This document shows positions 1 to 7,802 of a stretch of 17,585 nt of DNA, piece by piece. Source of the stretch: a virus; the UHGV virus genome UHGV-0376136, one strand, 5' to 3'. The notes below the pieces were generated by a model. That model was not told where the DNA came from and did no database searches. It was given only the letters and a program-made list of their open reading frames with translations. Each line of letters begins with the position of its first letter. Position 1 is the first letter of the stretch. A program made the translations under genes and the position numbers.

Positions 1-2041
1 CTGCAGGTTCGGTATATTCCTCAATTACCTCAGTCGGCACCTGCTCGGTATACTCCTCCTCGACATCTTCAAGCTCTGCCTCATAAACAAAAAGCTGTTT
101 GCCTGCCTCGTCAAGACGCGGAGAACCATCCTCGTTAAAGACAAATACCTGGATAAGCTTAGGTGTCTGATACTCTTCCTGAACTACCCTCTTGATGCGT
201 TCTCCATCTTCTGTTTCTTCATCCACAAGTATTTCGCGCGTGGCCGTCATCATCACAGGTCGCTTTACTGTGCGGGTTTTTGTCACTTCCATCATGCGGC
301 TGACAGTGCGGGTTTTTGTTACTCGCTCCCCCTCATTGGTCCGCACTGAAATATATTGGTCTTCCCATTCGTCGTAACAGAGGAGCCCGAGACCGAAGCC
401 ATCAATGCCATGCGATGCAAACACCTCCTCCACGCGCTGCGCAATAAGGCCGAAGTGCCAGCGCGCACCGTCTTCGCCTTTTTGCGCAACCGCATCATCA
501 AACTTAAACCGCGTGCGCCAGCTGACTTCCTCCCAGGCATCGAGGACCACATCAGGGATCGCTTCCTTAATTGGCTTGTGATTGTCATCGGAGGTGTTAA
601 TCGCACCAGTACCAAAATAGGCAGTACGTCCTCGATATGAGGCTGAGCCATAATCGAACTGGTTATCGGCGCTCGGGCGCTGGGTGCAGTTATAGGTGAC
701 AATCCCGGCTTTTATCTCATAGTTACCTTGCCCATCTGTTGCACTACCACCGCTAACCACTACGCGAGCGTCAAAAGCAGAGCCAGCCCCACTGGACCGG
801 TATATTGTTTGCACCGTGCTTGCAATAGTTGGAGACCCTACTGACGTAAACGCCCCTGAGTCTTCTAATTGCAAAGATTTGGTGCTGAGCTTAACCAGGT
901 TGTGGAAAATGATGTGGTTCACTTCAACCAACGAACCGAGGGAAAGGACGCGGTCTATTTTTGGGCAGTCGACGGAAAGTACACGGCTGTCTTCACCAAA
1001 TACTGCCCCGCCATTCTGCGGGCCAAAGGCAATACCGGTTCGCCAGGTGCAGGCGCTACCCATGTTACCGACGCTAATTGCAGCATCAATTACGTCGCCG
1101 CGTTTTGCCTTGGTGCCGCCGATTTGCAGGCCGGTTCTGATGTTTGAGCTGGCACCCTCCGGAATGCCGACGTTGAATTCAGCCCCCGTGACATTGAGCG
1201 TATACATAGCCCCTGGGGTAAGCGTTCCGTAGAAATTACCACCAAAATAAGCCCCCTTAGCGCCAGCAAGCGATACTCCACCGTCTCCAGTTGAGGAGGT
1301 CGCAAAGCCGGTGACGCCTACATAGTTTCTGTCAGTATTTGTTGCATCAGTCTGACCAAGCTGCTCAAGGATGAATTCAGCAGCGTGGCGGCCGCCTTTA
1401 CATCCCGCCCCCCCGAATTTGTGATTCAAGAGGAATCCGTCAACCTTTGTTCCGGGAACCATGTCATCAACAGCATTGAAACGGTCATCGTCAATCCTGA
1501 TATAATTGAACTTGGCCGTGTTGACAGTGAGCCCGCTCCCGGTAATCGGCTCCGCAAGATGAACCCCGATCCCTCGGGTAATATCATCTCCGAATTTCTC
1601 TCCTGGCCGCCCCTGCAGAATTGAAAACTTATCCAGTCCTCGGCTCATTACCCCAGGACCTACTAATGCAGCGCCGCCCAGCGCAGCTAATTCAGCCCTT
1701 AACTGGTCTGGAGCATATTTCAGAACATCAGCAAAATAGAATTGTTGGGTGCCGTATGAATCGCGAATCTCCATGCTGTAATTTTGCACGGTGACGAATT
1801 TAACAATCTGACCGTTATAAACGGGGAATCCGCCAGCATTTATTCGCAATGGCTGAGGTACTGGAACATGGGTCCCATCTTCATTCTCAATATAAACCTG
1901 AATTTGGTTAGCAGGATTCGTAGGATCTGTATCCACTAGCCCAATAAAGATTTCTCCATTGGCAACAGCCTTAAATGCACGAGCCATAGTAAATGGCTGG
2001 CTAGGCATGGCGATAAGAACATTGGCTGCAATGTCTGTCAT
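1..2041 (-). CDS. Tailspike / tail fibre, 3'-partial (C-terminus beyond window start). P22 gp9-like N-terminal head-binding domain, a different Gly-rich receptor-binding region, and a C-terminal S74-type intramolecular chaperone domain.
   Basis: ATG at 2041..2039 (minus) after GGAG RBS; translation begins [56 protein letters not shown], matching my recollection of the P22 tailspike N-terminus. Frame checked at 2041, 1207 and 667 (all the same phase). No stop seen in my translation down to position 1, which explains its absence from the ORF track; track ORFs 319..702 and 1090..1305 are off-frame. C-terminal part has ...[34 protein letters not shown]...[14 protein letters not shown]..., resembling the endosialidase/T5 chaperone motif. 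Confidence 0.8.
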
Positions 2042-2141: not shown

Positions 2142-3020
2142 TCAGTAGTTATGTACTGAAGGAGGTAATTCTTTATTCTTAAGTCTTATCCATGCGGAAA
2201 GATTCGTTGGTCCGTCTGGCTCATTAATATCAACATCTCGTGTGTGGTTTATTAAAACGTCTCTCGCCATTCCGATAACATACGAGAATTCATGACCGTA
2301 GTCGTAGCATCTGCCGGAATAGTTCGATTGAATTTGTTTTAGCGCCGGATACAGTTCGCGGAATAATGCCTGTGAACGGTTAGCATAATCCCATAGCCAT
2401 ACAAGGCTGTTTGCTTCTTTTGCAGAAAGCTCGTTGGTTTTCTTCTCTTGTTTGCCAATGAACTCACCTTCAAGCACTACCCTGTGGATGTACTCTACGG
2501 CCAGCGGGATTTGTTCAATTGAAAGCTCATCAATGCTGTCAATACCAAAACGCTGATGAACCATATTGTATGCATCGTCATAGCGAAGTCCTTTCTTTCC
2601 TACCAGCATGTTTACTGCATCGCGTAGCGGTGTTCTTTCCTCAACAGTGGTTTTCTTTCCTTTTACATACTCGCCATGTTTGCGAATTGAAGGCAGAACT
2701 TCTGCTGTTACCCACTTGCGGAATTTGTGCGGGACTGAACCTTTATTGACTGCATCGCGGCAGCGCAGAACCAATGTATACATACCTGATTCGCTCACAA
2801 TGCTTAGATTCTGCTCACCACCAAGGGTGTAACTTAAAGTTACTCCCTTTTCATCGTCATCAAGTGCAGTAAGCGCCTTGCGTGAGTTAGTCAAAGCTAA
2901 AGCATCACAAACATCTTTAGCTACAAACCACGGCTCGCCGCACTTGTTAATGACGCGAATTTCACTGTCGCCAAATTTGAAGATGGTGAAATCGTTTTGT
3001 GCCTTTGCTATACTTTTCAT
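2142..3020 (-). CDS. ant: Antirepressor Ant (Bro-N/AntA-type N-terminal domain), 292 aa
   Basis: Track ORF 2142..3086 trimmed to ATG at 3020 ([41 protein letters not shown]...[13 protein letters not shown]...[17 protein letters not shown]), colinear with my recollection of P22 Ant; the track start at 3086 is a GTG. Position after arc and before tailspike matches P22 immI. Confidence 0.85.
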
Positions 3021-3095
3021 GTCAATATTTCCTAAGCCGATTTGTTGATACCGAAGCCCTGACTGTTCCCGCAGTTGGGGCTTCACTGTTTTGAT
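3021..3095 (+). ncRNA. sar: Candidate sar-like antisense RNA covering the ant ribosome-binding site
   Basis: Plus-strand -10 TATACT (3009..3014) with weak -35 GTGAAA (2986..2991, 17-bp spacer) predicts a start near 3021, antisense to the ant start region. A plus-strand terminator-like hairpin follows. Arrangement analogous to P22 sar as I recall it; ends approximate. Confidence 0.3.
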
Positions 3096-3498: not shown

Positions 3499-3750
3499 AT
3501 GTCTGATCGTAAGTACAAAAACCCTCAAGTGAATCTGAGGCTTCCTGTAGAGATAAAGGAACGTCTTATTGAACTGGCTGAGGCTAATTCTCGTTCATTA
3601 AATGCTGAGATGGTCGCGGCACTTGAAGCATGGACCGAAAAAAATAAACACATTCAAGCACTAGACCTTGCAACTATAGCATCACGATTGATAGATCTTG
3701 AACACGATGTTGAGACGCTAAAGACCATGTATGCTAAGGATGAAAAATAA
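3499..3750 (+). CDS. mnt: Mnt-like ribbon-helix-helix repressor, 83 aa
   Basis: ATG 3499 with AGGA RBS 7 nt upstream; N-terminus NPQVNLRLPVEIKERLIELAEANSRSLNAEMVAALEAW fits the RHH beta-strand plus two helices; same length as P22 Mnt; divergent from arc across the operator region. Confidence 0.7.
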   Translation: MSDRKYKNPQVNLRLPVEIKERLIELAEANSRSLNAEMVAALEAWTEKNKHIQALDLATIASRLIDLEHDVETLKTMYAKDEK

Positions 3751-4286
3751 TGCTGCACACAATTCACTTCTTATGCCCTGTTAACACTGCCACTGTTGGG
3801 CAACTTCAGAACCACTGTCTCACCGCATTATCTCAAGGCGCAACTGAATTAAATATCCATATATCAAGTCAGGGAGGGGAAACTGCCGCTGGCTTTACTG
3901 CGTATAACTTTCTTAAGTCACTCCCTGTTACCGTTAGAACTCACAACATAAGCAATGTTGAATCCATAGCTAATATCGTTTTCCTGGCTGGCTCAGAACG
4001 TTTCGCAAACCCATTATCAAGATTCCTGTTACATCCTCTATTATGGGGCTTTGCCACCCCAGCCGCCGACCATGCCAGATTGAGAGAGTACGGGAAATGC
4101 CTCGATAACGATCTTGATCGCTTCGTTGAGACGTTCAATATCGACATCGGAACCCATATTAGGTGGGCATCCCTGATAGCAGACTCGACCATTTTGGATG
4201 CTAACAAGGCTCTTGAGCATGGCATAATTAATTCCATAAAAACTGCAAGGCTGGTATCCAATCAGGCAAACTGGTGGGTTGTTTGA
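3750..4286 (+). CDS. ClpP-like (S14-type, ClpP-fold) serine protease homologue, N-terminally truncated relative to ClpP, 178 aa
   Basis: Start ATG overlaps the mnt stop (TAATG at 3748..3752). By-eye alignment to E. coli ClpP: ISSQGGETAAGFTAY vs INSPGGVITAGMSIY; NVESIANIVFLAG vs QAASMGAFLLTAG (Ser aligned); PLSRFLLHP vs PNSRVMIHQP (His aligned); KALEHGIINSI vs EAVEYGLVDSI. Confidence 0.75.
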   Translation: MLHTIHFLCPVNTATVGQLQNHCLTALSQGATELNIHISSQGGETAAGFTAYNFLKSLPVTVRTHNISNVESIANIVFLAGSERFANPLSRFLLHPLLWGFATPAADHARLREYGKCLDNDLDRFVETFNIDIGTHIRWASLIADSTILDANKALEHGIINSIKTARLVSNQANWWVV

Positions 4287-4311
4287 TGGGTAAATCATGA
4301 TTACTCCTTAT

Positions 4312-4336
4312 AAAAAACCCACCTGAAGGTGGGTTT
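4312..4336. terminator. Bidirectional rho-independent terminator between the convergent ClpP-like and 322-aa genes
   Basis: cccacc-tgaa-ggtggg (4318..4333) flanked by A6 (4312..4317) and ttt (4334..4336); strong T-run in the minus direction, weaker in the plus direction. Confidence 0.65.
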
Positions 4337-4341
4337 CATAA

Positions 4342-5310
4342 TTAGATTTCTGGTTTCATTCTTCCGAAAACCTTTTCTATTCCTTTTTCGTATTCTTCTC
4401 TTGTCTCACTCATCGCTGCGACACCAAGAAGCTTACCGATATGCTGACGCAAAGCCTTGACACCAATTTCAGAAAGGAACAGATGCAACTTATCAGATTG
4501 TTTTCCGTTCTCGTCTCGGCTGGCTCGAATCTGTTCAAGGATTTTACCTTTACTCTTTGCTAGCGGGGTATATATCTGCATGTTGGTTAGCTGCCCAAAA
4601 CGAATAGGCCGTCCTTTCTCTGGCCTATTCAGGCCGTACAGTCGATACCACTCCTCGTATAGCTCATCTGGAAATTCCTTTTCATATTGACGAGCCTCTT
4701 CACGAACAAACGCTTTGAACTCGTCAATGACAGCCTGAACTTCTGGACGATAACCAGCAAGCGCATACGCAACCCCCTTAATTCCCGCCTTAGCGGAGGC
4801 ATTAATAAGTCTCTGTGCTGCGGCGGCTGCCTTTAACCGTGATTGTGGTAGATCGTCATTATCTTTGGCTTCTATTAGTGCCCTACCAATATCAACAATT
4901 GCTGTAATGTCATAACCTAACGCTTGATGAACGGTTTTAGACTTCGAAGTAAGTTGAAATTTATAGGGATTTTCCATTTTTCGCTGCAATTCTAGATCTC
5001 GGTATTTGCTCATATACTGAGCGCCAAGCAGTTGATCTAAATCCCTGGCATGTTCACCAATCCCTAGCAACTGAGATAATCCAGTTTTCGTAACAACGAC
5101 AGTTTTCGACTCGTCATCCAGTACATAACATTCAGCATCAATGCCAAAATCATCTAAAAAGTTACCACGATGAGTTGCCCTGAGAATCTTACTTTTCCAT
5201 CTTGCAGCAGCTGCTTTCTTTGCTATTTCAGAACGCTGCTCTTTAGTCAGCGACTTTGCGCGAGCGATCCCGCCCTTAGCTTTCCCTTCGCCACTTTTCT
5301 TTTCAGTCAT
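4342..5310 (-). CDS. Hypothetical protein, 322 aa, with basic Lys/Ala-rich N-terminal putative DNA-binding segment (possibly P63C-family; unverified)
   Basis: Track ORF 4342..5373 starts at a TTG with no RBS; ATG at 5310 is preceded by AAAGGTG. N-terminus MTEKKSGEGKAKGGIARAKSLTKEQRSEIAKKAAAARWKSKILRATHRGNF... Strong upstream promoter and operator repeats. Confidence 0.7.
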   Translation of the reverse strand: MTEKKSGEGKAKGGIARAKSLTKEQRSEIAKKAAAARWKSKILRATHRGNFLDDFGIDAECYVLDDESKTVVVTKTGLSQLLGIGEHARDLDQLLGAQYMSKYRDLELQRKMENPYKFQLTSKSKTVHQALGYDITAIVDIGRALIEAKDNDDLPQSRLKAAAAAQRLINASAKAGIKGVAYALAGYRPEVQAVIDEFKAFVREEARQYEKEFPDELYEEWYRLYGLNRPEKGRPIRFGQLTNMQIYTPLAKSKGKILEQIRASRDENGKQSDKLHLFLSEIGVKALRQHIGKLLGVAAMSETREEYEKGIEKVFGRMKPEI

Positions 5311-5402
5311 AATGCAAGCACCTTTGTTGTGATGTATGCTTGCATTATATGCACTGTACACACATACAAGCAAGCATAAAACTAAAACAAAATGCTTGCA
5401 TT
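5311..5402. promoter_or_regulatory. Promoter for the 322-aa gene embedded in four copies of an ATGCTTGC-core operator motif (two inverted pairs)
   Basis: Minus-strand -10 TATAAT (plus 5344..5349), 18-bp spacer, -35 TTGCTT (plus 5368..5373). Motif copies: 5311..5320 (aatgcaagca), 5337..5346 (tgcttgcatt), 5370..5377 (gcaagcat), 5392..5402 (atgcttgcatt). Confidence 0.6.
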
Positions 5403-5466
5403 ACAACCGCGCTGCTCCAACTACACATTATCATCTGGTATCCTGCTCAAAACTAAGGAGGTTGGT

Positions 5467-5787
5467 GTGTATATATCGCTATCTACCATTTTTTTCATCT
5501 GCTTAGCTATTTGGCTTTTAAGAATATGGCAGGATTGCTCTGTCAGCCATGCTGCTGCGGTGAGAAATAAAAACGCCCTCATAAAAGAAGCTGAAAACGT
5601 TGTCTTATCAATGGATCACCTTTCATGGACCGAGATGACTACAGGGCAACAAGAGGTTTATGAGTGTGCGATTGAGCGGTTAAGGCTGCTTAAGTCGTAC
5701 AAAAAGAACCACGCACCCGACTCATTCCCATTCCTGAAAGAATGGCCGAGATGGTATGACCCGAAAAAAGCAACCATCAACCGCTAA
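5467..5787 (+). CDS. Small single-pass membrane protein, 106 aa from GTG (131 aa if the ATG at 5392 is used)
   Basis: AAGGAGG (5455..5461) 5 nt upstream of GTG 5467; product begins VYISLSTIFFICLAIWLLRIW (hydrophobic helix) followed by a charged soluble domain. Ends 8 nt from the convergent gp16 stop. Confidence 0.5.
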   Translation: MYISLSTIFFICLAIWLLRIWQDCSVSHAAAVRNKNALIKEAENVVLSMDHLSWTEMTTGQQEVYECAIERLRLLKSYKKNHAPDSFPFLKEWPRWYDPKKATINR

Positions 5788-5795
5788 CCAACTTT

Positions 5796-7802
5796 TTACT
5801 GCTGGGCTTTCTCACTTGAAGCCTGAATTAGAGGTGTAAGAGTTTCAGATACCCGCCTGATCGCTCTATCATAAGCAGTACTTCCTTTTGGTGTGTTTGC
5901 TAACTTTAGTAATGCGTTCCTCATCGCGCGTGACTCATAGCCCCTGCCAGCCATACCGATACCAGCTCCAACTGCCGCAACTTTTGCAAACATTGGATTT
6001 GTAACAGATGCAAGAGCTGTTATCAGCGCTGCTGGACCAGCTACCATTTGCCCTGTTAGTGGGCTTGCGGCAGCAGTAGCTGCCTGTCTAGTGGAATCAA
6101 GATATTTCATTATCCCATCAAGCTGTTTCCCATGCTCTCCTCTGAAGAACGTCTCAGCCTGCTTCCGATTCCTTTTCATTTCATTAATAAACTTCTCAAC
6201 GCTAAGCTTTCCTGAATCGCTTGTCGCCTTATCCATTGCACGCTGAACAAGTGCTGCTCTAGCATTTTGACGCCCACTATCATCAAGCAATCGATAAAGT
6301 TGCGCCCTTTCCGCTGGGCTTTGGCTGAATACTAGTTTAGTGACATCTTCTGGCGTTGTTTTACCACTCTGAATAGCTTTTTGGACACGTGTATTGCTCA
6401 TCATGTCGTTGAACTTTGCCCAAGAACGATCAACACGCAACATGTTTTGCGCTTCCTTCGCACCTAGTTTTGCGCCAACCGCTTTTTTCATGTCTGTTGT
6501 GTATGCGTTATAAACAGACTGCGCAGCTTTCTCCAGCGTATCTCTATCGACCTCGTCAGGTGCTGCCATAAAGCGCTTACGTAAGTTTGTACGGTTTTCT
6601 CTAGCTAATTGCAGGTTATTTGGACCGCTGGTGATGTCATTTCTAAACTGTTGAAGGACAGAAACAGCTGAGCGGTCTTGCGATACTCCTGGGCGAGTTA
6701 ACTTGGAAATCTGCTCATCAATTGCTTTCACTGTTCCAGTGATGTCAACAGGAGTATCCCCCATCAAACTGATGATCCTGTCGTACCGCTTGCCAGCAGC
6801 CTGAATAAATTGCTGCTGACCACGAGTAGCTGATTGGTAAAGTTGTGCGTCAGATATTCCACCAACATTATCGCTAAATGTTCTAACTAAATCTTCCCTG
6901 GCCTTTTGCTGTGCATTTCTTATCCCACCTGTTCCGGCTATTGGGATTCGCTCAGCCATAGCTCGTGCTTGCTTACCAATATTTGTTCCCGGTTCCACAA
7001 GATCTGTTGTCATCAGTGGCAAGTTGTTCTGCTTGGCAAAGTCAATCTGAGCTTGTTTTTCAGGAGCAATCTTACCCATAGCAGAACGAGACACTGCGCT
7101 TGCGGTGTTTTCTACACCCTTCAGTACCCCACCAAGACCAGCAGAAATTGCAGTTTGAACTGGATTAACATTCTCACCGCCAGCGATCTTTGTGGCACCC
7201 TGTAAAGCTAAATCAGTAGCGCCTGATTTTAGTGTTGCACCTACAACAGACGCAGCTCTACCTGCTGGAGTGAATGCAAGAGCATTTGCCAAGAATGACG
7301 TTATATCCTGCGGTGACAAACCAGGCTTGTTAAGTGCATATTCCCCTGAAGGAAGGGTGACTATGGAATTTCCCTTCTCATCCTTCCGGATTTTCCCGCC
7401 AATACTTTGCAGTATTTTCTCCTGTGAAGCGTCGGAACCAAATAGCTGCCCCAATCCAGCACGCAGCGCATCAGTGCTTAAGCTATTAAGCTCTGGAGCA
7501 GACCCAACATTTTGCAGTCTCTCCATTTCTGGTGTCATTCGGCTTTCACCGGTAACGGCATCGCGCATTGCAGCACCTAAAACAGCCCCTTGCTCAGCAG
7601 ATCGATCTAGTCCTTCCTTCTGCTGAGTGGCAAGCTGTGCATATCCTGATGCAAGTGAGTTGTCTGCTGGCGATTGCTGAACACCTTGTTGTGTTGGTGC
7701 TGACTGACCAGCAAAATACTCATCAATGGCGGTGCCAATATCTTCGGTGCTCGTACCATCAGGAAAGGTAAATGTCTTACCGTTTGCAGTTACTTTCATC
7801 AT
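5796..7802 (-). CDS. 16: Ejection (E) protein, P22 gp16 analogue, 668 aa
   Basis: Last gene of the late operon before the accessory region; 4-nt start overlap with the upstream gene; long Gly/Ala/Gln-rich protein; assigned by synteny with P22 order 7-20-16. Confidence 0.8.

What the first reader, a model, noticed from the sequence alone, without database searches (positions are those of the whole stretch)
4342..5402. 322-aa basic-N-terminus protein driven by a consensus promoter buried in four ATGCTTGC operator repeats
The gene has a perfect TATAAT -10 and a TTGCTT -35. Two inverted pairs of an ATGCTTGC-core motif overlap the -35, the -10/start region and the 5'UTR/RBS. This is the architecture of a tightly repressed or autoregulated gene. 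The N-terminus (GGIARAKSLTKEQRSEIAKKAAAARWKS) looks like a short DNA-binding helix and may be P63C-family; that assignment is from memory and unverified. Function is unknown; its place in the P22 sieA slot suggests regulation, exclusion or abortive infection.
Basis: partly seen in the sequence, partly recalled or inferred. Interest (0 to 1): 0.75.

Follow-up and report, generated by a model that had tools for sequence, protein, structure and literature searches.

The report
Self-repressed P63C gene cassette in prophage
A small mobile gene cassette in a P22-like E. coli prophage encodes an uncharacterised DNA-binding protein that most likely switches itself off through four repeats in its own promoter; the same gene and repeats recur across many bacterial phyla, often in the transposon slot that elsewhere carries known anti-phage defence genes.

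Summary
A 322-aa ORF (4342-5310, minus strand) has a TATAAT -10 (5344-5349) and a TTGCTT -35 (5368-5373, 18-nt spacer, only 3/6 to consensus). Four ATGCWWGCAT sites in alternating orientation lie at 5392-5401, 5368-5377, 5336-5345 and 5312-5321; the chance of such a cluster is about 5e-6.

The protein matches Pfam P63C in its C-terminal third and phrog_2384 over its full length. It has no known function, no PDB relative and no PADLOC hit.

The new evidence is comparative:
- The same four-site array, with the same orientation and spacing, precedes homologues in 47 of 74 genome loci from many phyla and in 66 of 80 viral contigs. In these arrays a -10 is fused to site C and site D sits between the ribosome-binding site and the ATG.
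- The array tracks the N-terminal GGxARA...AARW motif, not the protein body.

The feature is therefore a self-contained cassette (4310-5469) that is very probably autorepressed.

Elsewhere the cassette is one of several interchangeable cargos of IS1-family transposons. Other cargos in that slot match SoFic, dGTPase and PD-Lambda-2. In phages the cassette occupies the sieA, rex and nin slots. It is therefore a candidate exclusion or defence gene, but the effector function is unproven.

The parts
4310..5469 (-). Whole mobile cassette: terminator, P63C gene, promoter and operator array, and upstream leader
   Evidence: Sharp homology boundaries recur in E. coli genomes and phages. Matches run from window 4309/4312 to 5469. 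At least 80% of the cassette is present in 46 of 5,426 complete E. coli genomes.
4342..5310 (-). CDS, 322 aa, P63C-family protein
   Evidence: Translation. phrog_2384 over the full length, E = 1.7e-104. An identical protein occurs in phage vB_EcoP-611R6.
5197..5286 (-). N-terminal basic two-helix motif (residues 9-38, GKAKGGIARAKSLTKEQRSEIAKKAAAARW); inferred operator-recognition element
   Evidence: G13, G14, A16, R17, A18, R26, R37 and W38 are invariant in 21 homologues (whose numbering is one lower). AlphaFold2 predicts two helices at pLDDT 57-68. The operator type follows this motif, not the protein body.
4453..4716 (-). Pfam P63C domain (residues 199-286)
   Evidence: PF10546, E = 6.8e-14, 52.7 bits against a gathering score of 26.1.
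5392..5401 (-). Operator site A (ATGCAAGCAT), upstream of the promoter
   Evidence: Conserved position and orientation in 89 distinct arrays.
5368..5377 (-). Operator site B (ATGCTTGCTT), containing the -35
5368..5373 (-). -35 hexamer TTGCTT (3 of 6 to TTGACA), 18-nt spacer
   Evidence: Read. TTGC[AT]T is conserved inside site B, with a 17-18 nt spacer, in 89 arrays.
5344..5349 (-). -10 hexamer TATAAT, whose last T is the first base of the site C core
   Evidence: Read. Across 89 arrays the consensus is T(86%) A(87%) n A(61%) A(87%) T(94%) immediately 5' of site C and is not present before site A.
5336..5345 (-). Operator site C (ATGCAAGCAT), overlapping the -10 and the predicted transcription start (about 5337)
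   Evidence: The start site is inferred from the -10 position.
5312..5321 (-). Operator site D (GTGCTTGCAT), between the Shine-Dalgarno AAGG (5321-5324) and the ATG (5308-5310)
   Evidence: In 89 arrays GG precedes site D (77% and 67%) and the ATG lies 7-10 nt after the core start.
4311..4336 (-). Rho-independent terminator directly after the stop codon
   Evidence: -16.6 kcal/mol, z = -3.75.
5467..5787 (+). Neighbour, not part of the cassette proper: divergent 106-aa hydrophobic-N-terminus ORF with GTG start. Its SD AAGGAGG (5455-5461) and leader lie inside the cassette edge.
   Evidence: Sequence. phrog_10450, unknown function, E = 3e-52. The leader 5423-5469 is 100% identical in phages JEP4 and epsilon34.

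Best explanation
Window 4310-5469 is a self-contained 'moron'-type cassette (own promoter, one gene, own terminator) inserted in the sieA slot of a P22-like prophage.

Its product is a P63C-family protein. Its N-terminal basic two-helix motif (GGxARA..LTxEQRxEIAxKAAxARW) is inferred to recognise the 8-10 bp site TGCAAGCA / ATGCWWGCAT. Four such sites, arranged as two inverted pairs (A/B and C/D), cover the -35 (B), the -10 and start point (C) and the ribosome-binding region (D), with A as an upstream helper. When enough protein is present it occupies the array, probably cooperatively as an oligomer, excludes RNA polymerase and keeps its own synthesis low and constant. This is negative autoregulation.

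Shown here: the sequence anatomy; the conservation of the sites and of their register with the promoter across phyla; and the linkage of operator type to the N-terminal motif.

Inferred: binding, repression and oligomeric state.

The effector role of the conserved body (middle domain plus P63C domain) is unknown. The most likely reading is a lysogen-expressed function in conflict between mobile elements, that is superinfection exclusion or anti-phage defence. Two observations point that way. The cassette sits in prophage exclusion slots. In other bacteria it is an interchangeable cargo of IS1-family transposons whose same slot carries SoFic-, dGTPase- and PD-Lambda-2-like genes.
For: Anatomy.

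Conservation of the array:
- A strict quadruple TGCAAGCA(+)/(-)/(+)/(-), with spacings 20-25/30-33/22-25, lies directly upstream of homologues (44-77% identity) in 47 of 74 loci. The hosts include Enterobacterales, Burkholderiales, Pseudomonas, Alphaproteobacteria, Acidobacteriota and Myxococcota.
- The same quadruple is present in 66 of 80 viral contigs.
- Single-base shuffles of the upstream regions give at most 2-3 copies.

Promoter embedded in the array, from 89 distinct arrays:
- TAnAAT is fused to site C (T 86%, A 87%, A 87%, T 94%). The TA at the first two positions is conserved only before site C, not before site A.
- TTGC[AT]T lies in site B, with a 17-18 nt spacer.
- GG precedes site D and the ATG follows 7-10 nt after its core start.
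- Site C therefore lies at or upstream of the predicted transcript start, so the sites must act on DNA.

Specificity follows the N-terminal motif:
- ST104 orf23 (31% identical overall, same motif) has the same four sites.
- The 933W type is 35% identical to ST104 orf23 in the body but has the motif ...KESSRKAVAAKK and the repeats ACGTGCA.
- L183 has the motif ...SESARNAALAKS and the repeats TGTACGCA.
- Distant ...ARW/...AKW relatives keep GCAAGC or CAAGC sites in other arrangements.
- The operators plus the N-terminal coding part recombine as one unit (one search hit H93; P0088 and P0023).

No other target: the complete phage ON470589 has only this cluster.

Context pointing to a conflict function:
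- The cassette lies between the gp16-like gene and mnt.
- The ST104 copy lies directly after cI, and the 933W copy lies in the nin region.
- 35 of 74 genome loci have a divergent IS1-family transposase.
- Perfect inverted repeats and 8-bp target duplications bound the transposase plus the cargo.
- When loci are chosen by the transposase, the cargo slot holds matches to SoFic (1e-54), dGTPase (1.5e-119), PD-Lambda-2_B (7e-44) and HEC-09/NYN.
Against: - No experiment: binding and repression are inferred.
- The N-terminal helices are modelled only at pLDDT 57-68. The well-modelled middle domain could contribute to, or even provide, DNA recognition.
- The -35 is weak (3 of 6) and the spacer is 18 nt. 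The consensus scanner did not call the promoter.
- The operator/motif co-variation rests on three operator types, which is anecdotal.
- Two-site natural variants exist, so four sites are not obligatory.
- For the defence reading there is no PADLOC hit, no enzymatic motif, no solved or recognisable fold and no literature. The argument is guilt by association only.
Confidence: 0.7

Rival explanations
1. The repeats act in RNA. A pairs with B and C with D (or B with C, or A with D) to form alternative hairpins in a long leader. These would control translation or termination, with site D masking the start codon.
For: - The whole region is an extended palindrome (repeat I1).
- A read-through transcript of 5420..5290 folds at -48 kcal/mol, with A:D and B:C paired.
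- Site D sits between the ribosome-binding site and the ATG.
- In this phage, late-operon read-through from the gp16 side runs in the same direction.
Against: - A conserved -10 (TAnAAT) is fused to site C and a -35 lies in site B. The native transcript should therefore begin inside or after C and contain only D. That leader folds at only -4.6 kcal/mol.
- The site sequence itself, not just its pairing potential, is conserved from Acidobacteriota to E. coli.
- Bases flanking the sites are no more complementary than shuffled partners for A:B. C:D shows only a small excess at one position.
- No Rfam family reaches its threshold.
Confidence: 0.08
2. The sites are bound by something other than the P63C protein: a host transcription factor, the neighbouring Mnt or Arc repressors, the prophage repressor, or (in transposons) the IS1-family transposase.
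For: - The cassette lies next to the immI regulators.
- In 35 loci a transposase gene starts about 30-55 nt from site A, and the reverse complement of site A supplies a TTGCAT -35 for it.
Against: - The array travels with the P63C gene through unrelated hosts and contexts: P22-like, lambdoid and Burkholderia phages, transposons, and loci with no transposase.
- It is absent from the mnt/arc intergenic region and from the rest of the window.
- It is absent upstream of the same transposase clade when the cargo is not P63C (54 of 59 loci).
- The operator type changes with the N-terminal motif of the P63C protein.
Confidence: 0.07
3. The array is a res-like recombination site and the P63C protein is a new kind of resolvase/repressor for IS1-family transposons. 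This would be analogous to Tn3 tnpA-res-tnpR; the phage copies would be orphans.
For: - The architecture is the same in 35 of 74 loci: divergent transposase and P63C genes separated by several inverted-repeat subsites that overlap both promoters.
- The transposase and P63C trees are uncorrelated (r = 0.00; Mantel test, 833 of 2000 permutations at least as high), as expected if modules are exchanged at the array.
- Natural deletions occur between the direct repeats A/C and B/D.
Against: - No serine- or tyrosine-recombinase domain is found by Pfam, NCBIfam, PDB sequence search or fold search.
- P63C is only one of many cargos of this transposase clade (5 of 59 loci), so it is not an integral partner.
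- The cassette is maintained, with intact sites, in hundreds of transposase-less phage copies.
- Deletions between 10-bp repeats 56 bp apart are also explained by replication slippage.
Confidence: 0.05
4. The protein is an ordinary phage transcription regulator or antirepressor acting on lysis-lysogeny genes, not an exclusion or defence factor. (This is a rival only for the effector function.)
For: - From memory of the Pfam entry and Iyer et al. 2002, P63C domains are described as C-terminal partners of the Bro-N and KilA-N DNA-binding domains in phage regulators.
- The gene lies beside immI (mnt, ant).
Against: - No second operator cluster exists in the window or in a complete phage with the cassette.
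- The cassette also lives in non-phage transposons across phyla, where there is no phage circuitry to regulate.
Confidence: 0.1

Closest known systems
Pfam PF10546 (P63C domain) / PHROG 2384; homologues ST104 orf23 and 933W L0095 (NP_049495)
   Same: Significant domain match and full-length family match. ST104 orf23 has the same N-terminal motif and the same four-site array.
   Different: The family has no assigned function. The operator array and its link to the N-terminal motif are not mentioned in any paper found. The 933W-type members use a different repeat.
Negative autoregulation by operators overlapping the promoter (P22 immI Mnt/Arc, lambdoid cI/Cro, AbiEi of the abiE system); recalled from the literature
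   Same: Repeated inverted sites cover the -35, the -10 and the start region of the regulator's own gene. Several sites suggest cooperative binding.
   Different: The recognition element is a short N-terminal basic helical motif with no Pfam match, not an RHH, HTH-Cro or known wHTH domain. It is attached to a roughly 280-aa conserved body of unknown role. Site D lies between the ribosome-binding site and the ATG.
Phage 'morons' (promoter-gene-terminator insertions expressed from the prophage; Hendrix and colleagues, from memory) and the P22 sieA / lambda rex slots
   Same: Own promoter and own terminator, sharp mosaic boundaries, and location between gp16 and mnt. The ST104 copy lies directly downstream of cI.
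   Different: There is no similarity to SieA or Rex proteins, and no exclusion phenotype is known.
Tn3-family tnpA-res-tnpR module (from memory)
   Same: In the transposon-borne copies there are divergent genes with a multi-subsite inverted-repeat region carrying both promoters.
   Different: No recombinase fold or motif. The gene is an optional cargo, not a fixed partner. The window copy has no transposase and no inverted repeats.
IS elements with passenger genes ('transporter IS' of the IS1 / IS1595 families, as catalogued in ISfinder; from memory)
   Same: Related cassettes lie inside 1.8-4.0 kb elements. These have a DDE_Tnp_IS1-type transposase, GGTAGTG... terminal inverted repeats and 8-bp target duplications.
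   Different: The window copy is not in such an element. I found no report that this clade carries P63C or defence-type cargos, but the search was limited.

Membership tests
Pfam P63C (PF10546) | HMM match above the curated gathering score | tested here: met
   52.7 bits against 26.1, residues 199-286, profile positions 3-92 of 93.
PHROG 2384 (full-length phage family, function unknown) | Full-length profile match | tested here: met
   E = 1.7e-104, residues 6-321 against profile positions 4-328 of 338.
Sigma-70 promoter | -10 hexamer close to TATAAT | tested here: met
   TATAAT at 5349..5344. TAnAAT is conserved at this place in 89 arrays.
Sigma-70 promoter | -35 hexamer close to TTGACA at 16-18 nt | tested here: inconclusive
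   TTGCTT matches 3 of 6 with an 18-nt spacer and was not called by the scanner. TTGC[AT]T at 17-18 nt is nevertheless conserved.
Sigma-70 promoter | Mapped transcription start | not testable with these tools
   Needs 5' RACE or RNA-seq. The predicted start is about 5337.
Autoregulated repressor with operators in its own promoter | Repeated sites overlapping the -35, the -10 or the start of its own gene | tested here: met
Autoregulated repressor with operators in its own promoter | Sites co-inherited with the gene across lineages and contexts | tested here: met
   47 of 74 genome loci and 66 of 80 viral loci, plus ST104 and Bups phi1.
Autoregulated repressor with operators in its own promoter | Site sequence co-varies with the DNA-recognition part of the protein | tested here: met
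   Three operator types follow three N-terminal motif types, independent of body similarity. The sample is small.
Autoregulated repressor with operators in its own promoter | Protein binds the sites and lowers transcription | not testable with these tools
   Needs EMSA, footprinting or a reporter assay.
Known anti-phage defence systems (PADLOC-DB 2.0) | Profile match to a catalogued defence protein | tested here: not met
   0 families at E up to 1. A distant relative, L214, also gave none.
Known anti-phage defence systems | Protection phenotype | not testable with these tools
   Needs phage challenge.
Site-specific recombinase (Tn3-type resolvase / tyrosine recombinase) | Catalytic domain or fold | tested here: not met
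IS1-family transporter IS (for the window copy) | Transposase gene and terminal inverted repeats flanking the cassette | tested here: not met
   No tblastn hit of the transposase in the window. The best inverted-repeat match has 6 of 19 mismatches.
Rfam RNA families | Covariance-model match at the gathering score | tested here: not met
   Only generic hairpin (miRNA) noise far below threshold.
P22 SieA | Sequence similarity to SieA | not tested
   No SieA sequence was compared. The link is by position only (where hit H80 has a sieA gene annotated next to the cassette).

The most novel reading that the evidence does not exclude
The P63C cassette is a previously unrecognised, autoregulated single-gene system for exclusion of phages or other mobile elements. 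It spreads both as a prophage moron (sieA, rex and nin slots) and as swappable cargo of an IS1-family transposon clade that otherwise ferries SoFic-, dGTPase- and PD-Lambda-2-type defence genes. Its N-terminal motif and four-site array would hold a potentially harmful effector at a fixed low level. If so, this would give the P63C domain, which as far as I recall was defined in 2002, its first function.
Probability: 0.3. Interest if true: 0.8.

Novelty: new variant of a known kind. Interest (0 to 1): 0.6.

Why it matters
P63C is a widespread protein family in phages and mobile elements with no assigned function. About 1,360 clusters at 50% identity match at E up to 0.001.

This work supplies three things:
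- A concrete cis-element for the family: TGCAAGCA x4 in fixed register with the promoter.
- A candidate recognition motif: the N-terminal basic two-helix segment.
- A testable functional hypothesis: a conflict or defence cargo.

The cassette is only 1.16 kb and self-contained, so binding, repression and phage-challenge tests are straightforward.

The side observation is that an IS1-family transposon clade shuttles interchangeable single-gene defence systems. If it is not already described, it is relevant to how defence genes move between phyla.

Tried and rejected
- Function by homology. NCBIfam gave none and PADLOC gave none. A PDB sequence search with a 21-sequence profile found nothing at E up to 10. 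Pfam on the isolated N-terminus and middle domain found nothing at E up to 10.
- Literature. 'P63C', 'P63C domain' and 'P63C' plus 'prophage' returned nothing functional. Searching the motif strings returned only unrelated primers. 'ISMhu11' and 'IS1595' plus 'passenger gene' returned nothing on this element. The Iyer 2002 paper is not held.
- Known RNA family: rejected.
- P63C as an obligate partner of the transposase: rejected. The two phylogenies are uncorrelated, and only 5 of 59 transposase-selected loci carry P63C.
- Window copy as a decayed transposon: no inverted-repeat or transposase remnant.
- A divergent promoter for the plus-strand ORF106 inside the array. In this enterobacterial version the symmetric -10 next to site B is degenerate (ATACAA), and I found no convincing alternative. 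This is left open.
- Close-relative scans with the ST104 and 933W proteins in viral contigs added little diversity.
Full report
1. WHAT IS IN THE WINDOW

On the minus strand an ORF runs from ATG 5310 to TAA 4342-4344 and encodes 322 aa beginning MTEKKSGEGKAKGGIARAKSLTKEQRSEIAKKAAAARWKS. Directly after the stop lies a rho-independent terminator at 4311-4336 (-16.6 kcal/mol, z = -3.75).

Upstream, on the gene's strand, the sequence reads:

...TAATGCAAGCATTttgttttagttTTATGCTTGCTTGtatgtgtgtacagtgcaTATAATGCAAGCATAcatcacaacaaAGGTGCTTGCATTATG.

The pattern ATGCWWGCAT with at most one mismatch hits six times in 17,585 bp. Four of those hits lie within 90 bp:
- Site A, 5392-5401.
- Site B, 5368-5377.
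- Site C, 5336-5345.
- Site D, 5312-5321.

The orientation alternates and the centre spacings are 24/32/24. The C and D arms are 12/12 complementary. Shuffles give an expectation of 4.5 hits per window, so such a cluster has a probability of about 5e-6.

TATAAT (5349..5344) is fused to site C. TTGCTT (5373..5368) lies inside site B, 18 nt upstream. AAGG (5324..5321) directly precedes site D, and the ATG follows D by two bases.

One caveat applies: the -35 matches the consensus at only 3 of 6 positions, and the promoter scanner did not list the promoter.

2. THE PROTEIN

- Pfam finds a P63C domain at residues 199-286 (52.7 bits, cutoff 26.1).
- PHROGs places the whole length in phrog_2384, function unknown.
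- NCBIfam, PADLOC and a profile search of all PDB sequences find nothing.
- The N-terminus and the middle domain, searched alone, match no Pfam family.
- An AlphaFold2 model built from 21 homologues has mean pLDDT 70. It shows a well-modelled alpha/beta middle domain (residues about 40-190, pLDDT 80-90), two N-terminal helices (pLDDT 57-68) and a poorly modelled helical C-terminal part.
- The family is sizeable. 1,682 proteins match at E up to 1e-5 in the word-indexed search, and 1,363 clusters at 50% identity match at E up to 0.001.
- No functional study was found.

3. CONTEXT IN THE WINDOW

The window is a P22-like (Lederbergvirus-type) prophage segment. The order of features is:
- Late genes on the minus strand, ending with a gp16-like DNA-transfer protein (5796-7802).
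- A plus-strand 106-aa ORF of unknown function (5467-5787).
- The P63C cassette.
- A Mnt-like ribbon-helix-helix gene (3499-3750) followed by a ClpP-like ORF (3750-4286).
- Ant (2142-3086).
- A tailspike gene that runs off the window start.

This matches the position of sieA in P22 (gene order recalled from the P22 literature).

An identical protein, in the same place, is present in phage vB_EcoP-611R6.

Megablast against phages and E. coli genomes shows recurrent sharp boundaries at window about 4310 and 5469. The unit is therefore a 1.16-kb mosaic cassette with its own promoter and terminator. At least 80% of it is present in 46 of 5,426 complete E. coli genomes.

4. THE COMPARATIVE RESULT

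I fetched 74 genomic loci encoding relatives at 44-77% identity, one genome per species, and asked which 9-mer is most repeated in the 160 nt upstream. In about half of the 45 loci scored this way the answer was a GCAAGCAT-type word, at the same four positions and with the same +,-,+,- orientation. Shuffles gave at most 2-3 copies.

A strict search required TGCAAGCA or its complement with at most 1 mismatch, in order +,-,+,-, with spacings of 19-27/28-36/19-27.
- It finds the array directly upstream of the gene in 47 of the 74 loci. The hosts include Klebsiella, Yersinia, Burkholderia, Pseudomonas, Rhodanobacter, alphaproteobacteria, Acidobacteriota and Myxococcota.
- It finds the array in 66 of 80 viral contigs.
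- Most of the viral contigs without it that I inspected are two-site derivatives, consistent with deletion between the direct repeats A/C or B/D.

Column statistics over 89 distinct arrays show three things:
- The 5 nt before site C, together with its first T, read T(86%) A(87%) n A(61%) A(87%) T(94%). This is a sigma-70 -10. The TA is not conserved before site A.
- Site B carries TTGC[AT]T at a 17-18 nt spacer from that -10.
- Site D is preceded by GG (77% and 67%) and followed by the ATG 7-10 nt after its core start.

The promoter is thus part of the conserved design, and transcription should start inside or just after site C. That places A, B and C outside the transcript, so the element works on DNA.

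Three further points agree with this:
- The predicted leader is nearly unstructured (-4.6 kcal/mol).
- Bases flanking the sites are no more complementary than shuffled partners for A:B, and only marginally more for C:D.
- What is conserved is the site sequence, not just its pairing potential.

No Rfam family matches.

5. WHO BINDS

The array follows the P63C gene into unrelated hosts and elements. It is absent elsewhere in the window and elsewhere in a complete 45.9-kb phage that carries the cassette. That phage has 4 clustered hits plus 3 scattered, against 11.3 expected.

Natural swaps point to the N-terminal motif as the specificity determinant:
- ST104 orf23 is only 31% identical to the window protein overall but shares GGVARA...AAARW. 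It has the same four sites at spacing 24/32/25. Its annotated start lies inside site C, and the true ATG is 36 nt downstream.
- The 933W homologue is closer to ST104 orf23 in the body (35%) but has the N-terminus ...KESSRKAVAAKK. It is preceded by ACGTGCA/TGCACGT repeats, as are two relatives.
- A third type...SESARNAALAKS, has TGTACGCA/TGCGTACA repeats.
- Distant ...ARW or ...AKW members keep GCAAGC or CAAGC sites in other arrangements.
- In E. coli, the operators plus the first 40 or so codons occur 98% identical joined to a different body (one search hit H93; see also P0088 and P0023). The operator and the N-terminal motif therefore behave as one recombination unit.

Binding itself is inferred, not shown.

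6. MECHANISM PROPOSED

The protein, probably as an oligomer, occupies two inverted pairs: A/B and C/D. Each pair spans about 32-34 bp, and the pairs are 55-56 bp apart. Occupancy of B and C blocks the -35 and the -10. D adds a block at about +15 to +25, and A stabilises the complex. The result is tight negative autoregulation that keeps the protein at a low set level.

I put this at about 0.7.

7. WHAT THE PROTEIN IS FOR

There is no direct evidence here. There are two kinds of context.

(a) Prophage positions. The cassette lies in the sieA slot here, directly after cI (the rex position) in ST104, and in the nin region in 933W. Accessory genes expressed in the lysogen are commonly found at these positions in such phages (from memory of the literature).

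(b) Transposons.
- In 35 of the 74 genome loci a divergent gene starts about 30-55 nt beyond site A. It encodes an IS1-family transposase of about 290 aa (Pfam DDE_Tnp_IS1; one locus also has Zn_ribbon_InsA).
- In these loci the reverse complement of site A supplies a TTGCAT -35. In the clearest cases, such as L036, a CATAAT-type -10 follows 16-17 nt downstream and sits about 7 nt before the transposase ATG. The transposase promoter is therefore also under the array. This was read and is an inference.
- The transposase and the P63C gene lie between perfect terminal repeats GGTAGTGGGTCAGTTTGAA, with 8-bp target duplications. The elements are 1.8-4.0 kb, and all 20 examined had both features.
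- P63C is nevertheless cargo, not a fixed partner. Transposase and P63C distances are uncorrelated (r = 0.00).
- Among 59 metagenomic loci chosen by the transposase alone, only 5 carry P63C.
- The same slot otherwise holds genes matching PADLOC SoFic (1.2e-54), dGTPase (1.5e-119), PD-Lambda-2_B (6.6e-44), HEC-09/NYN (8e-16), an AAA ATPase and unknowns.

By association, P63C looks like a gene for conflict between mobile elements or for defence. I put that at about 0.3-0.35. It is not in PADLOC 2.0.

The window copy itself has no transposase and no remnant of the terminal repeats.

8. RIVALS

- RNA hairpins or attenuation (0.08).
- A different binding factor (0.07).
- A Tn3-like res site with a resolvase (0.05).
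- An ordinary phage regulator or antirepressor (0.1, for the effector function only).

Each is set out in the rival section with its evidence.

9. NOVELTY AND VERDICT

The domain family and the general logic of autorepression are both known. As far as I could search, the following are new:
- The conserved four-site operator in fixed register with the promoter, across phyla.
- The assignment of specificity to an unclassified N-terminal motif.
- The cargo relationship with an IS1-family transposon clade that carries defence genes.

I classify the finding as a new variant of a known kind, interest 0.6.

Noticed in passing
L009, L010, L012, L014, L028, L047, L068, L071, L073 and L208-L276 (for example L014:2018-4542, L010:1045-4276): An IS1-family 'transporter IS' clade. 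It has perfect terminal inverted repeats GGTAGTGGGTCAGTTTGAA and 8-bp target-site duplications in all 20 elements checked. The layout is IR, transposase, divergent promoter, cargo, IR. The cargo slot holds interchangeable genes: P63C, SoFic-like, dGTPase-like, PD-Lambda-2_B-like, NYN/HEC-09-like, an AAA ATPase and unknowns.
   Followed up: partly
window 3499-4286 (+): A Mnt-like ribbon-helix-helix gene is followed in the same orientation, with stop and start overlapping, by a 178-aa ClpP-related protease-like ORF. The best matches are head-maturation protease models, all below the curated cutoffs. This is an unexpected partner for mnt in the immI region.
   Followed up: no
window 5423-5469 and 5467-5787 (+): The cassette's upstream edge coincides exactly with the GTG start of a 106-aa ORF with a hydrophobic N-terminus (phrog_10450, unknown function). 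Its leader and SD (AAGGAGG, 5455-5461) are 100% identical in phages JEP4 and epsilon34, so this looks like a mosaic boundary sequence. The ATG at 5392 that annotators use for this ORF lies inside operator site A and has no ribosome-binding site.
   Followed up: partly
L077:1417-1455 (phage ST104 orf23): The annotated start codon of ST104 orf23 lies inside operator site C. The start that matches the family N-terminus and follows site D is the ATG at L077:1453.
   Followed up: yes
L112, L155, L158 (viral contigs), upstream of L*:4001: Natural two-site variants of the operator array, consistent with deletion between the direct repeats A/C or B/D. These copies lie next to a tRNA-like sequence (GGTTCGAATCC).
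   Followed up: no
L282 (phage vB_EcoP-611R6, whole genome): Outside the operator cluster, ATGCWWGCAT (at most 1 mismatch) occurs only 3 times in 45.9 kb, against about 11 expected from shuffles. This may be avoidance of the site or a compositional effect.
   Followed up: no
E. coli GPEC1405, NZ_CM142774.1:4775575-4775790 (hit H93); proteins P0088, P0023, P0123: The operators plus the first 40 or so codons are near-identical to the window but joined to divergent P63C bodies. The recombination breakpoints fall just after the N-terminal motif.
   Followed up: partly
window 1-2040 (-): A tailspike gene runs off the window start. The segment is 99.4% identical over its full length to an annotated tailspike in E. 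coli EC102, and only its head-binding end is shared with other strains.
   Followed up: no
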